Sequence record: OR896822.1
Origin: Salmonella phage vB_SenS-3
DNA length: 64,000 nucleotides
Strand: one strand, 5' to 3'
Made by a program: the position numbers and the translations under genes
The notes under the pieces: generated by a model
What the model was told of the DNA's origin: nothing
Databases searched by the model: none
What the model saw: the letters and a program-made list of their open reading frames with translations, nothing else
Shown: one piece after another, positions 33,518-54,266 of the stretch
Layout of the letters: each line of letters starts with the position of its first letter
Numbering within the stretch: position 1 is the stretch's first letter

Positions 33518-33790
33518 ATGAAAGAAGCAGAAATTAATGAAATGGCTAGAATATTCATCGTTTCCTATATGCAAGGCAGTTGCAATAGTTTATTCGAGTC
33601 TGCTATAGTATTTCAGGAAATGTTAGCCGAGAAAGGCGTACATATGGAAGATACTGAAATTGAAGATCTTCTAATGGAAACTTGTAGTAGTGCTGAAGTC
33701 TTCCAGTGTGGTAACTGTAATTGGTGGTGTCCAGAGCATGATCGTTCTGAAGAAGGTTCCTACTGTTCCGATTGTGAAGGAGAAGAATAA
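33518..33790 (+). CDS. hypothetical Cys-rich acidic protein
   Basis: 90 aa; CGNCNWWC...CSDC. Confidence 0.45.
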   Translation: MKEAEINEMARIFIVSYMQGSCNSLFESAIVFQEMLAEKGVHMEDTEIEDLLMETCSSAEVFQCGNCNWWCPEHDRSEEGSYCSDCEGEE

Positions 33791-43356: not shown

Positions 43357-43788
43357 ATGCAAAAGATTGATAAAGCACTTTTAATCGCAACAGCAGATAA
43401 GTTTGAGCAAGTTAAAACTACTTTTAAGGCAGTCTTTCAGTCCTATGTTCAAGACAAATCGAACCCGATTTCTGAGCGTTTGATGATGTGGGAATGTTTT
43501 ACTTGCAATGCTCTGCTAATTTCCGATTATAGGGGAGAAGTATCTGAGGAATTGCAGGAGATCTTTATTAATGAAGATACTACACGCTATCAGTTAGTGA
43601 ACTTCCAGGATCTAGCCGAGCAAGTTATTCCAGATGATCTTTGGGACAAGTATTACGGTGATCCTGAAGAAGATGGTATGGAACCTGAGAAGTGCATCGA
43701 ACTGATCTGTAAGGATTATCCTGAAATTGCTGAGAAATTTGAGTTAGTATTTGCTTCGGAGTTCTCAGGTTTCGTTAACGATTGGTAA
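43357..43788 (+). CDS. hypothetical acidic protein
   Basis: 143-aa ORF; promoter at 43297. Confidence 0.45.
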   Translation: MQKIDKALLIATADKFEQVKTTFKAVFQSYVQDKSNPISERLMMWECFTCNALLISDYRGEVSEELQEIFINEDTTRYQLVNFQDLAEQVIPDDLWDKYYGDPEEDGMEPEKCIELICKDYPEIAEKFELVFASEFSGFVNDW

Positions 43789-49340: not shown

Positions 49341-49829
49341 TCAAATACAAACTCTCGTTGACAGATAACTAAATGTATGTTATCATAACTCTATGAGTTA
49401 ATAAAATTAACCATTTAGAGTTGCCACACAGAAGGTGTGGTGGTTCAGGAATCTTAAATTACTGACTTGTAGCGTAGGTTACGGAGCGACAGGACAAGTC
49501 AACAGGTAATTTAATAAAGATTACTAGAAACATCACGAGACCTTCTGGCGGGGGCAAAGCTCTATATGAGAACCCTGGGGGATCTTATACTTATATAAAA
49601 ACTAATACTGTTGAATAGATAAATTAACGTTCAAGATGATACACTCGGTTGCCGCTCATCTGCTAGGATGGCACAACACTTTCTTCTAGACTCCTAAGTT
49701 TCTAGGAGAACTCTCGTCAACTCAGGCGGTTTTCATTGTTCCTAGAAACTCTAGCAATAGGCGGTTAATACAGGGCGGTTATAGGGAGGGCGGTTATTTC
49801 TAGGAGTCATTTTTTGAAAACACATTTCT

Positions 49830-50445
49830 GGAGATTGCTATCGGATTTGCACATTATGTTTCTAGAAATTTATGGTCGGATTTGCACAATTGCCTAAGTT
49901 TTTAGGAACATATAATCTCCCGAAAATAGCAGCATTATTTCGGGCCGAAGGCCCATGATTGCCTGAGTTTTTAGAGCCACAGGAATTTTCACTTGTCAAG
50001 CTATTTTGCCCCATTTTGCTAATAAAATTTCGCTTTATCTCCCCCAATCTCAATTCTAGCCAAAACATCCCGCATTATCCCCAAAAACGCAGCAAACCGG
50101 TGCTAAAGCACCATCACCGCTGCTCCTTCCGTAGTTACTCCCAAAATCTCATCGGATTCGCACTTCTCCCCAAACCCACACAATCACACACCCTCCAATC
50201 GAAGTCACAAAAATCTTGTCGGATTCGCACACCTTAACACTTGTCGGTTTTGCACATATTCTAGTAAATCCAGCTGGATTGCATCGCAGTTGCGGATTGC
50301 TAGAGTTTTTAGGAAAATTCATTGTCGGATTCGCACACTATAAAAATATTTGCCATCGGATTTGCACACTACCAAAAATTGTCGGATTCGCACATGCACG
50401 CTGGCACGTAATCCGTGGGGGCAAATGTCGGATTTGCACAAAAGC
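49830..50445. repeat. iteron array: about 9-10 copies of TCGGATT(C/T)GCACA plus TTTCTAGGAG-like and GGCGGTTA repeats
   Basis: Copies near 49843, 49876, 50146, 50220, 50245, 50326, 50353, 50379, 50428; motif resembles a degenerate DnaA box (ATTTGCACA). Confidence 0.8.
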
Positions 50446-50464
50446 GCAGGGCAAATAGAAAATG

Positions 50465-50640
50465 CCCTGCCTGCCGAAATGCGAATGATAATGAGATTGA
50501 TTCGCATTTGAGAAGTTGAATGCGAATGATAATGATTCGCGTTTAGAAAGGGGAATGAGAATGGTTATCCTTTACAGAGTTGAATGCGAATGAGTTGCGT
50601 AATGAGAATGATTCGCATTTAGAAAGGGAAGTGAGAAACA
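50465..50640. repeat. cluster of GAATGCGAATGA / ATTCGCATT inverted and direct repeats
   Basis: At least four TGAATGCGAATGA-like units alternating with ATTCGCATTT/ATTCGCGTTT. Confidence 0.75.
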
Positions 50641-50652
50641 CTATTATTTAAG

Positions 50653-51909: not shown

Positions 51910-52122
51910 TCATAATACCCCACGAAACGCAGCGTAAAAGGTGGCAAAGTGTTTAACCGTTTCGGCTACCAAATTGCCGCGCTTGTCAAATTTCTTTTCT
52001 GTAACACGGAAAGCGTTTTTGTTGCGTGCTACATATTCGATTTTACAATCTGGACGCTCGAACGTGTTAACATCCACCAGCTTAAAACCTTTGGAACGGG
52101 CAAGGGAAACATTCTTTAACAT
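51910..52122 (-). CDS. hypothetical protein
   Basis: 70-aa ORF. Confidence 0.35.
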   Translation of the reverse strand: MLKNVSLARSKGFKLVDVNTFERPDCKIEYVARNKNAFRVTEKKFDKRGNLVAETVKHFATFYAAFRGVL

Positions 52123-52274: not shown

Positions 52275-52381
52275 TTTAACGCCTCCTAGAAATTAGGGAA
52301 AATTTTCAGTCCACCGTTTCGGTGTAAAGGCATTATAACAAAAAAGGCCGCCGATTAGGGCGACCTTTACAAAACTTTACA

Positions 52382-52876
52382 TTAGACTATTTCTAGTGCT
52401 TCCACGCCGAAACAGCGTTTTAATTCTTTCTGTAAAACGGCATATTCATCCCAACGGGAATTATCAGGAATATAAACAAGCTGTTTTAGTCGATTTGCAT
52501 ATAATAACGCCTTGTTACCAATTATTTCCGCGCCACCGTGTTTAATAATTAGTTTCATAACGGTATTAATAGGATCGCCGCCATTTACATAAGTACCGGA
52601 CTTACTCAATTGATAATGATAAAGACTCGCATATACATTATCATTTTCAATCCATTCCCCTGTTTCTTCATCTTCTTCCCCATCGCTACCGAAACGAGAA
52701 GCATTATCATATGCGTGTTCGTTTGCGAAAGCGTCCAGATCACAGCCAGCGGGAACAAAATGTTCCTCCGTCCAGCCTTCCCCACAATAGCCAGTGTGAC
52801 AATCAACTAAAACGATCATATCGTGTTTAGCTTCATTCACACTTTCTAGAGAAAAGCCATATTTTTCTTCTGACAT
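52382..52876 (-). CDS. hypothetical acidic protein
   Basis: 164 aa with Asp/Glu-rich stretch SDGEEDEETGEWIEND. Confidence 0.45.
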   Translation of the reverse strand: MSEEKYGFSLESVNEAKHDMIVLVDCHTGYCGEGWTEEHFVPAGCDLDAFANEHAYDNASRFGSDGEEDEETGEWIENDNVYASLYHYQLSKSGTYVNGGDPINTVMKLIIKHGGAEIIGNKALLYANRLKQLVYIPDNSRWDEYAVLQKELKRCFGVEALEIV

Positions 52877-52889
52877 AACTAGACTCCTA

Positions 52890-53198
52890 TTAATTAGCAG
52901 GGAAATAAAGAGAATTTGCTACACTGTAAAATCCTTTATTTAAGAAAATTACGTCATCACGGACTATTTCATCCATTCCATAATCCAGCAAAGTTTCGTC
53001 TACAAAAATACATAGCCAGCCATAACCACGATCAAAGAAAGCATGATAATTATTAGCGCTTTCTACATGTTCCCATAAAAAGGGACGGCCTTGTTTTTCC
53101 CATATAGGAATATTGCTTTGATCGTCCGAATAATTAACATGGGGGCTATTCGGCATTTTTTCGGCTAATTGCGTCAACATGATTTGATTCAGTTGCAT
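52890..53198 (-). CDS. hypothetical protein
   Basis: 102-aa ORF. Confidence 0.45.
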   Translation of the reverse strand: MQLNQIMLTQLAEKMPNSPHVNYSDDQSNIPIWEKQGRPFLWEHVESANNYHAFFDRGYGWLCIFVDETLLDYGMDEIVRDDVIFLNKGFYSVANSLYFPAN

Positions 53199-53264
53199 AA
53201 TAAGTAGTCTCCTAACAATTAACAGGGAAATAGTAAAGCGGGAAATAATCCCCGCTAGTAATTA

Positions 53265-54266
53265 TTACTCTGTTTCGGCGCTTTGGGTAAAGGTAGAAAT
53301 GTCAATGCCTTTTACCATTTCATCGATCATTTCAGCAATATTGAAACTCTGTACCATTTCCAGCATTGCCGCTTCCATTGCCGCGCCTGCTACCGCTTTC
53401 GCTTTCGCATTAGTCGGGGCGTACTGGTCAACCGCTACGCTTAACAGGTTAGCGATCACTACGCGACCGATCGGCGTATCGATATAACCTTTAATCATAA
53501 ACGGCGCTTTTTTCGCCGCTACTTTTGTGATTTGAGTCAGTGCAATTTTACCCGCTTCCAATTTAGCAGCGTTAACAACGGCGGATTTATTAGCGGCAAC
53601 GATAGAAGATACTTTAGACATAATATTTCCTTTATTTTCAGTAGTTTGCGCATTTGCGCTTGAAGTTTGAGATTGTACAGCCTGTTTTGTTACATTGTCA
53701 AGCGATTTTAATGTAAATCCAGCGTTTGCAACGTTTGATTCATTCCCATACTCTAAATAATCGTTAGGAATCAACATGTTACCGCTAGCGCGTTCAAAAC
53801 ACAATACGCCAGTTGTTTCGATTGCGTCACTATCCGCACCTTTATAACTGGATGATAATTCACGCCAGATACTATTTAATAACGATCCGACACTATCCAG
53901 TCTGATATTATTTACTTTTGTTGCTGTTACCTGCTCTTTTTCTTGCACGTTATATAATCGCGCAATGTAACCACTATGAGACTCACTATAACCAACAATG
54001 ATAAAATCAATATCAGTTCCCCGACTATTACGGAAAATGTGATAATCACGGTTGAAAATTACTAGCGCCCTTGTCTGGTCTAGTAATAGCGTGAAATCAT
54101 CGACTGAATAATGAGTATCATTATTATCTAAAATTTCATCGTGAATCTTTTCAACCATTGCCGCCGTATGTTGTACGCTTGCCACACTACTACCATCTAG
54201 CAGGTTGCGCAAACTACCCTTAATAATAGTGGCGTTTGCTGGTACTGCAATTCTTACAGTAGACAT
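53265..54266 (-). CDS. hypothetical protein
   Basis: 333-aa ORF, first gene of minus-strand block, Ala/Lys-rich C-terminal half. Confidence 0.5.
   Translation of the reverse strand: MSTVRIAVPANATIIKGSLRNLLDGSSVASVQHTAAMVEKIHDEILDNNDTHYSVDDFTLLLDQTRALVIFNRDYHIFRNSRGTDIDFIIVGYSESHSGYIARLYNVQEKEQVTATKVNNIRLDSVGSLLNSIWRELSSSYKGADSDAIETTGVLCFERASGNMLIPNDYLEYGNESNVANAGFTLKSLDNVTKQAVQSQTSSANAQTTENKGNIMSKVSSIVAANKSAVVNAAKLEAGKIALTQITKVAAKKAPFMIKGYIDTPIGRVVIANLLSVAVDQYAPTNAKAKAVAGAAMEAAMLEMVQSFNIAEMIDEMVKGIDISTFTQSAETE

What the first reader, a model, noticed from the sequence alone, without database searches (positions are those of the whole stretch)
52382..52876. Acidic protein in the pre-early-type block as candidate DNA mimic / anti-restriction factor
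The 164-aa product has a dense Asp/Glu stretch (SDGEEDEETGEWIEND) and a net negative charge. It lies in the first-injected block where T5-type phages are expected to carry host-takeover and anti-defence functions. Strongly acidic small proteins in such positions are often DNA mimics.
Basis: inference. Interest (0 to 1): 0.45.

Follow-up and report, generated by a model that had tools for sequence, protein, structure and literature searches.

The report
Acidic orphan pre-early phage protein

Summary
Window 52382-52876 (minus strand) encodes a 164-aa protein with pI 4.55 and net charge -17. It carries the run SDGEEDEETGEWIEND and lies inside the T5-type pre-early block of an Epseptimavirus. It belongs to a small family found only in T5-like phages (phrog_6741, the 'My1_018' ORF that Davison called 'curious'). 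Two confident AlphaFold models match no solved structure, including every deposited DNA mimic.

All the negative charge sits in the N-terminal 101 residues (net -19); the C-terminal domain is neutral. Acidity is conserved in all 37 aligned members. No plausible catalytic residues are conserved: only one Thr, two Gly and two Ala are nearly invariant. The acidic run is a hypervariable beta-hairpin, and in 19 of 37 members it is a four-cysteine knuckle.

Anti-restriction is not supported. T5, Bas32 and Bas33 resist restriction but lack the gene. Bas27 and Bas28 carry it and belong to the restriction-sensitive group.

My best reading is inferred, not shown: a non-enzymatic acidic decoy that binds a basic surface of an unidentified host or defence protein. 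A narrow-target DNA mimic is not excluded. The finding is a moderately interesting but unproven candidate.

The parts
52382..52876 (-). Coding sequence of the 164-aa acidic pre-early protein (phrog_6741 / My1_018 family). The stop codon is at 52382-52384.
   Evidence: ORF; composition; full-length PHROG match at E 2e-88; identical or near-identical copies in over 120 phage records.
52574..52876 (-). N-terminal acidic domain, residues 1-101, net charge -19. It contains the TGYCGE beta-hairpin, the acidic helix 47-61 and the acidic hairpin. This domain is the core shared by the whole family, and short members consist of it alone.
   Evidence: Model secondary structure; charge partition and conserved acidic columns; short members P0045-47 and P0059-62; N-domain HMM hits.
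52640..52687 (-). The acidic run SDGEEDEETGEWIEND, residues 64-79. It forms a beta-hairpin (strands 66-68 and 75-77). It is hypervariable in length and is replaced or extended by a CxxC...CxxC knuckle in 19 of 37 homologues.
   Evidence: The knuckle-bearing homologue P0012 models with the same topology at pLDDT 89.
52385..52573 (-). C-terminal neutral domain, residues 102-164, net charge +2. It is the most conserved part among close relatives (RLKQLVYIP motif). It reassorts independently of the N-domain.
   Evidence: C-domain HMM.
52884..52888 (-). Shine-Dalgarno sequence AGGAG, 7 nt upstream of the ATG. It lies between the target and the stop codon of the upstream 102-aa gene.
   Evidence: Read directly from the sequence.
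52343..52368 (-). Intrinsic-terminator-like hairpin (10 bp stem, 6 GC pairs, T-tract), beginning 14 nt after the target's stop codon.
52890..53198 (-). Upstream 102-aa gene (phrog_16959, function unknown, pI 4.5). It is tightly linked to the target in this window but absent next to the target in TrudiRoth (Bas30), so it is a separate module.
53237..53256 (-). Terminator-like hairpin downstream of the T5.011-like gene. It marks the upstream edge of the variable slot that holds the 102-aa and 164-aa genes. T5 has an annotated terminator at the equivalent place.
53265..54266 (-). T5.011-like gene (DUF7566, 333 aa). It is the conserved upstream synteny anchor of the family across Demerecviridae.
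   Evidence: Pfam E 2e-142; synteny.

Best explanation
The ORF is a genuine accessory pre-early gene of a T5-like Epseptimavirus. It belongs to a small family (phrog_6741 / My1_018) found only in T5-like phages. The protein has two domains.

The N-domain is strongly acidic. It contains a conserved TGxCG hairpin, a helix with conserved acidic positions (E53 and D57 inferred to be exposed), and a hypervariable acidic beta-hairpin that is a four-cysteine (probably zinc) knuckle in half the family. The C-domain is neutral, better conserved, and reassorts independently.

I infer that the protein is not an enzyme. It most likely acts stoichiometrically in the first minutes of infection: the acidic face of the N-domain occupies a basic, probably nucleic-acid-binding, surface of a host or defence protein. 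The variable hairpin would set specificity, and the C-domain would provide scaffold or partner contacts.

What is shown:
- the gene, its charge and its conservation;
- its pre-early synteny and its narrow phylogenetic range;
- a fold with no structural match;
- its absence from restriction-resistant T5, Bas32 and Bas33.

What is inferred:
- that it is non-enzymatic;
- the decoy or binder mechanism;
- that the target is a nucleic-acid-binding protein.

The protein is not the determinant of T5-type general restriction insensitivity.
For: - The ORF has a Shine-Dalgarno sequence and a terminator.
- The window is 100% identical to Salmonella phage RA40 and 98.8% identical to rokbiter.
- The pre-early position, downstream of the DUF7566/T5.011-like gene and near the AP-endonuclease and A2/A1, is kept in Sugarlandvirus, Eos, an Enterobacter phage and metagenomic T5-like contigs.
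- The family is tiny: 32 representatives among 1.84 billion proteins and 37 clusters among 5.8 billion. There are no plasmid hits.
- The AlphaFold models are confident: pLDDT 87 with pTM 0.82, and pLDDT 89 with pTM 0.79, with the same topology.
- No PDB fold or sequence match was found.
- Only T28, G29, G32, A55 and A59 are nearly invariant, which does not look like a catalytic constellation.
- All members are acidic, with pI 4.05-4.8.
- The charge is confined to the N-domain. Acidic columns are conserved, no basic column is conserved, and the loop is always acidic.
- The two halves reassort: the window protein against P0012 shows 45% identity in the N-half and 100% in the C-half. Together with the variable loop, this is the pattern expected for a protein under host-interaction pressure.
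- About 60% of Salmonella and Escherichia and about 85% of Klebsiella records that encode A1 carry the family, so it is an accessory gene.
Against: - There is no experimental or interaction evidence of any kind, and no target is identified.
- Whole-protein acidity is only the 5th of 103 ORFs in this window, and acidic small proteins are common in phages.
- The models rest on shallow alignments of 15-16 sequences.
- Lack of conserved catalytic residues across a 22%-identity alignment is suggestive, not proof.
- A four-cysteine knuckle could instead point to a regulatory or nucleic-acid-related role.
- Thirteen of 17 T5 pre-early genes are dispensable in the laboratory (bioRxiv 10.64898/2026.04.02.716235). 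Phenotypes of such genes may be subtle or depend on the host.
Confidence: 0.4

Rival explanations
1. One reading: a classical DNA-mimic anti-restriction protein of the Ocr or ArdA type. It would block Type I restriction-modification (and BREX) by occupying their DNA-binding grooves, protecting the second-step DNA.
For: - It is a pre-early gene with a strongly acidic N-domain: net -19 over 101 residues and 23% D/E.
- Acidity is conserved family-wide.
- DNA mimics are structurally diverse, so a new fold does not exclude mimicry.
- Epseptimaviruses resist Eco29kI and Esp1396I despite having many sites, which implies some unidentified anti-restriction function (PMC10644984).
Against: - There is no fold or sequence similarity to any solved structure, including Ocr, ArdA and other deposited mimics.
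- T5, Bas32 and Bas33 are broadly restriction-resistant but lack the gene.
- Bas27 and Bas28 carry it and belong to the Epseptimavirus group (Bas26-29) reported as generally restriction-sensitive. Bas27 is restricted by Type I EcoR124I and is the most BREX-sensitive phage tested.
- The acidic run is a variable loop or Cys4 knuckle, not a fixed charge ladder.
- There are no homologues in plasmids, where ArdA-type genes reside.
Confidence: 0.1
2. A host-takeover or self-regulation factor unrelated to immunity. One option is an acidic binder of a host nucleoid or transcription protein such as H-NS, HU or RNA polymerase. Another is a modulator of a neighbouring pre-early protein that is toxic when expressed alone (the T5.011-like DUF7566 protein, the Ung-dependent AP nickase, or A1).
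For: - Synteny is conserved directly downstream of the DUF7566/T5.011-like gene and upstream of the AP-endonuclease family gene across distant Demerecviridae.
- T5.011, T5.013 and T5.015 are toxic when expressed alone and disturb the nucleoid (bioRxiv 10.64898/2026.04.02.716235).
- Acidic proteins commonly bind DNA-binding host factors.
Against: - T5 and Bas33 keep T5.011 and the nickase without this gene, so it cannot be an obligatory antidote or partner for them.
- Hypervariability and domain reassortment fit an arms-race target better than a conserved housekeeping target.
Confidence: 0.2
3. An enzyme, or a zinc-ribbon nucleic-acid-binding regulator.
For: - Half of the family carries a CxxC...CxxC motif that gives weak zinc-ribbon Pfam hits.
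- The conserved glycine-rich motifs (TGxCG, NGGDP) could form ligand-binding loops.
Against: - The window protein and many other members lack the cysteines altogether.
- The knuckle is embedded in a loop with 6-12 acidic and 0-2 basic residues, and the family has no conserved basic position. This is incompatible with nucleic-acid binding.
- No conserved Asp/Glu/His/Lys/Ser constellation typical of an active site is present.
- There is no structural match to any enzyme fold.
Confidence: 0.05
4. A non-functional or unexpressed ORF.
For: No direct expression data exist for this phage. T5-like phages can lose the gene.
Against: - Full-length conservation extends down to about 25-30% identity in several genera, with fixed synteny.
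- A good Shine-Dalgarno sequence and a terminator are present.
- The predicted fold is confident.
Confidence: 0.02

Closest known systems
phrog_6741 / 'My1_018' ORF family of T5-like phages (uncharacterised)
   Same: The match is full-length (E 2e-88). My1_018 itself (P0051) is recovered by the family profile. Davison (bioRxiv 10.1101/866236) noted it as a 'curious' ORF shared by My1, DU_PP_V, chee24, Shivani, SW2, EPS7 and Stitch, with no T5 homologue.
   Different: Nothing differs; the window ORF is a member. The family has no assigned function, structure or Pfam entry.
T7 Ocr (gp0.3) and plasmid/transposon ArdA: DNA-mimic anti-restriction proteins
   Same: Both are small, acidic and expressed from the first DNA to enter the cell. 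ArdA is about the same length (roughly 166 aa, from my own knowledge).
   Different: There is no sequence or fold similarity. Charge here is confined to one domain and a variable loop, not spread over an elongated dimer. D+E is 18% here against roughly 28-29% for Ocr and ArdA (my own knowledge). Phages carrying the gene remain sensitive to Type I restriction-modification and BREX. The family is absent from plasmids.
Small alpha/beta DNA mimics with narrow targets (Ugi, p56 and SAUGI against Ung; AcrIIA4 against Cas9; T4 Arn)
   Same: The family core is an alpha/beta domain of about 80-100 aa carrying -13 to -24 net charge. This is similar in size and charge to those proteins. The gene sits two genes upstream of an Ung-hijacking nickase homologue.
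T4 Dmd (antitoxin against RnlA/LsoA)
   Different: The score is below the usual significance level, sequence identity is 13%, and the match covers only part of one domain. I treat it as a common small beta-alpha motif, not as homology.

Membership tests
phrog_6741 / My1_018 family | Full-length profile match | tested here: met
   E 2e-88 over residues 1-164 of a 164-position profile. All 37 aligned relatives hit the same PHROG.
phrog_6741 / My1_018 family | Location in the pre-early block of a T5-like (Demerecviridae or related) phage, downstream of the T5.011-like gene | tested here: met
   Seen in the window and in rokbiter, Bas28, Bas30, Sugarlandvirus, Eos, an Enterobacter phage and a metagenomic contig.
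DNA-mimic proteins (functional class) | High density of negative charge | tested here: inconclusive
   The whole protein has 18% D/E and net -17, ranking 5th of 103 ORFs. The N-domain alone has 23% D/E and net -19 over 101 aa, which is within the range of small mimics.
DNA-mimic proteins (functional class) | Surface carboxylates arranged like the phosphates of B-form or bent DNA | not testable with these tools
   Model coordinates are not exposed (one search shows only FASTA files). Only secondary structure and pLDDT are returned.
DNA-mimic proteins (functional class) | Binds the DNA-binding site of a DNA-binding protein and competes with DNA | not testable with these tools
   This needs biochemistry or complex prediction.
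Ocr (T7 gp0.3) family | Sequence or fold homology to Ocr | tested here: not met
ArdA family | Sequence or fold homology to ArdA; typical residence in plasmid or ICE leading regions | tested here: not met
T5-type pre-early 'restriction insensitivity' determinant | [quoted passage not shown] | tested here: not met
   T5 has no hit by tblastn across positions 1-111,000. It has no hit by family HMM at E of 1 or less across 1-111,000, nor with filters off in the first-step-transfer region. Bas33 and Bas32 pre-early regions lack it.
T5-type pre-early 'restriction insensitivity' determinant | Carriers should be protected from restriction-modification systems | tested here: not met
   Bas27 and Bas28 carry the gene and belong to the Epseptimavirus group Bas26-29, reported as generally restriction-sensitive (PMC10644984; PMC8594841). 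Bas27 is restricted by EcoR124I and is the most BREX-sensitive phage tested.
Zinc-ribbon proteins | Four Cys/His ligands in a CxxC...CxxC arrangement | tested here: not met
   The window protein has no cysteine in the loop, whereas 19 of 37 homologues have at least four there. The window copy is a cysteine-less variant.

The most novel reading that the evidence does not exclude
The family is a structurally new class of acidic decoy (DNA-mimic-like) proteins specific to T5-like phages. Its variable hairpin, sometimes tipped with a zinc knuckle, plugs the nucleic-acid-binding site of a particular host nuclease or defence system. One candidate is whatever makes Epseptimaviruses insensitive to Eco29kI and Esp1396I. 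Others are RecBCD, or a Gabija- or Ung-type enzyme. Modular swapping of N- and C-domains would retarget the protein between hosts.
Probability: 0.15. Interest if true: 0.6.

Novelty: new member of a known kind. Interest (0 to 1): 0.3.

Why it matters
T5-like phages carry out several classic pre-early functions whose genes are still unassigned, including protection from restriction enzymes, CRISPR and RecBCD, and avoidance of host methylation. These phages are also widely used in Salmonella and E. coli biocontrol.

This work removes one tempting candidate from the list for general restriction insensitivity. It also defines the candidate as a compact, phage-restricted, two-domain acidic protein with an unmatched fold and signs of rapid diversification. 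That gives experimenters a concrete, cheap-to-test accessory gene for anti-defence or host-takeover screens. Natural carrier and non-carrier phages for such tests already exist in the BASEL collection.

Tried and rejected
1. PDB sequence search gave a weak hit to the phiKZ gp174 baseplate pin (E 0.12). The hit vanished with family profiles and was absent from the Foldseek PDB hits listed, so I rejected it as chance.
2. A hint of Pfam DUF7167 for one short member (E 0.0034) was not reproduced in other short members. Rejected.
3. T5.012, the 76-aa gene in the same slot in T5, is not related to the target or to the 102-aa neighbour.
4. The afdb50 fold library was unavailable.
5. BFVD returned only uncharacterised Demerecviridae homologues.
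6. NCBIfam and PADLOC gave nothing meaningful.
7. The plasmid search was empty.
8. I looked for direct expression data in the Bas33 transcriptome and proteome study (PMC13250531), but Bas33 lacks the gene.
9. Literature searches for anti-defence work on T5-like pre-early genes found nothing on this family beyond Davison's remark. The Silas-lab screen and the retron Eco2 paper were irrelevant.
10. A metal site formed by C26, H27, C31, H39 and C45 was considered. I rejected it because those positions are not conserved.
11. An obligatory antidote role for the neighbouring toxic genes was rejected, because T5 and Bas33 keep those genes without this one.

Full report
**Observation.** An AGGAG Shine-Dalgarno sequence lies 7 nt upstream, and the TAA stop of the preceding 102-aa gene is only 13 nt from the ATG (sequence). 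A strong terminator-like hairpin (52368 to 52343, minus strand) begins 14 nt after the stop codon. The protein has pI 4.55, 30 Asp+Glu against 13 Lys+Arg, and net charge -17. SDGEEDEETGEWIEND is residues 64-79. Against this phage's own background it is acidic but not extreme. It ranks 5th of 103 crude ORFs by net charge per residue, about 10% of those ORFs have pI below 4.6, and its acidic run is only marginally the densest.

**Genome context.** The window is 100% identical to Salmonella phage RA40 and 98.8% identical to Epseptimavirus rokbiter, where this gene is gp007, 'hypothetical protein'. The gene lies inside the T5-type pre-early (first-step-transfer) block. On one side is a repeat-rich, injection-stop-like non-coding region at 49.8-50.65 kb. 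On the other are the A2, A1 and dmp homologues at 56.2-60.2 kb. The minus-strand operon reads as follows:
- the T5.011-like DUF7566 gene, followed by a terminator;
- the 102-aa gene;
- the target, followed by a terminator;
- a 49-aa membrane protein;
- the homologue of the Ung-dependent AP nickase.

T5 itself has only the unrelated 76-aa T5.012 in this slot. The slot's content varies between relatives. Bas28 has the 102-aa, 164-aa and 76-aa genes. Bas30 has the 164-aa and a 75-aa gene at the T5.012 position, without the 102-aa gene. T5 and Bas33 have only the 76-aa gene.

**The family.** Pfam, NCBIfam and PADLOC give nothing for the target. PHROGs gives a full-length match to phrog_6741, 'unknown function'. 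A profile search of 1.84 billion representative proteins found only 32 relatives, and a 5.8-billion-protein search found 37 clusters. No plasmid carries a homologue. Every context I examined is a T5-like or related large phage:
- Sugarlandvirus, Eos, an Enterobacter phage and a metagenomic contig keep the gene downstream of the T5.011-like gene and near A2/A1.
- More distant contigs carry N-domain-only forms among small early-type genes, one of them near an A2-like gene.

About 60% of Salmonella and Escherichia and about 85% of Klebsiella phage records that encode A1 also encode this family. It is therefore a common accessory gene, not a core gene. Davison had already remarked on the family: 'ORF My1_018 is curious... 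having no homolog in T5' (bioRxiv 10.1101/866236). My1_018 is P0051 in my family search. I found no functional study of the family.

**What the alignment says.**
- Across 37 members at a mean column identity of 22%, only T28, G29, G32, A55 and A59 are nearly invariant. This does not look like a catalytic constellation, which argues for a binder rather than an enzyme (inference).
- All members are acidic, with pI 4.05-4.8.
- In the window protein all the charge is in residues 1-101 (net -19, 23% D/E), while residues 102-164 are neutral (+2).
- Positions E33, E37, D46, D48, E53, D57 and the loop are conserved as acidic family-wide. No position is conserved as basic.
- By helical periodicity, E53 and D57 lie opposite the buried invariant alanines and so are probably exposed next to the hairpin (inference).
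- The hairpin varies from 11 to 39 residues, always with 6-12 acidic and 0-2 basic residues. In 19 of 37 members it carries at least four cysteines, most in a CxxC...CxxC pattern.
- A knuckle-bearing homologue (P0012) models with the same topology at pLDDT 89, and the insert is a confident elaboration of the same hairpin.
- The two halves of the protein reassort between lineages. The window protein against P0012 shows 45% identity in the N-half and 100% in the C-half; P0012 against P0019 shows 99% and 62%.
- Short family members of 81-128 aa consist of the acidic N-domain alone.

**Testing anti-restriction against published phenotypes.** T5 shows no trace of the gene. tblastn across positions 1-111,000 gave a best E-value of 0.11. 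The family HMM gave no hit at E of 1 or less across the same span, nor with filters off in the first-step-transfer region. The Tequintaviruses Bas33 and Bas32 also lack it in their pre-early regions. [quoted passage not shown]

The Epseptimaviruses Bas27 (63% identity), Bas28 (98%) and Bas30 (99%) all carry the gene. The Epseptimavirus group tested, Bas26-29, was 'generally more sensitive to R-M systems'. Bas27 is restricted by Type I EcoR124I and is the most BREX-sensitive phage tested. BF23 carries the gene in both terminal repeats and is resistant.

Presence of the gene therefore does not track resistance. It cannot be the T5-type restriction-insensitivity determinant, and Ocr-like activity against Type I systems and BREX is unlikely.

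Two caveats apply. Recognition sites inside the first-step-transfer DNA can be cut before any pre-early protein accumulates. Epseptimaviruses also resist Eco29kI and Esp1396I by an unknown mechanism. A narrow-spectrum role is not excluded.

**Most likely mechanism (inference, confidence about 0.4).** The protein is a non-enzymatic pre-early accessory protein. Its acidic N-domain, through the exposed face of helix 47-61 and the variable hairpin, binds a basic, probably nucleic-acid-binding, surface of a host or defence protein. The C-domain acts as a conserved scaffold or partner module. The charge conservation, lack of catalytic residues, loop hypervariability, domain shuffling, accessory distribution and early expression context all fit this reading. 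None of them proves it, and the target is unknown.

The rivals are:
- a classical DNA-mimic anti-restriction protein (0.1);
- a host-takeover or self-regulation factor tied to the neighbouring toxic pre-early genes (0.2). This is weakened because T5 and Bas33 keep those genes without this one;
- an enzyme or zinc-ribbon nucleic-acid binder (0.05). This is disfavoured by the cysteine-less variants and the absence of any conserved basic residue;
- a non-functional ORF (0.02).

**Verdict.** The gene is an ordinary member of a catalogued but uncharacterised orphan family. Its unmatched fold and diversifying acidic tip make it a reasonable, though unproven, candidate for anti-defence screening. Interest is 0.3.

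Noticed in passing
window 49800-50650: This is a repeat-rich non-coding region at the border of the pre-early block. It holds at least 8 copies of TGTCGGATT[C/T]GCACA, 4-5 units of AATG[A/C]GAATGAT and several inverted repeats. Its position matches the T5 injection-stop-signal (iss) region.
   Followed up: partly
window 52890-53198 (-), compared with L003, L008, L019, L020, L002: The slot downstream of the T5.011-like gene is a variable cassette site. Relatives carry different combinations of the 102-aa gene, the 164-aa gene and a T5.012-like 76-aa gene. Bas32 lacks even the T5.011-like gene. The 102-aa protein matches only the first half of the 196-position profile phrog_16959.
   Followed up: partly
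window 53701-53672 (-): A near-consensus sigma-70 promoter-like site (TTGACA, 18-nt spacer, TACAAT; 11 of 12 matches) lies inside the T5.011-like coding sequence, pointing towards the downstream genes.
   Followed up: no
window 33518-33790 (+) and 43357-43788 (+): Two small ORFs outside the pre-early block are more acidic than the target. One is 90 aa with pI 4.05 and net -17 (phrog_2855). The other is 143 aa with net -18 (phrog_4979). Both are of unknown function. By charge alone they are at least as good 'mimic' candidates.
   Followed up: partly
family alignment A1 (window protein, P0012, P0015, P0019): There is clear recombination within the gene between the N- and C-terminal halves. P0012 has a C-half 100% identical to the window protein but an N-half only 45% identical.
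   Followed up: yes
L012 5720-6300 (+): A distant large-phage contig (GCA_040384245) carries two adjacent N-domain-only paralogues of the family, among a run of small same-strand ORFs near a TROVE/Ro60-like gene.
   Followed up: partly
window 51910-52122 (-): This 70-aa ORF is 93% identical to the T5 Ung-dependent AP-site nickase. That protein is numbered T5.014 in NC_005859 and called T5.015 in the literature. It lies two genes downstream of the target.
   Followed up: partly
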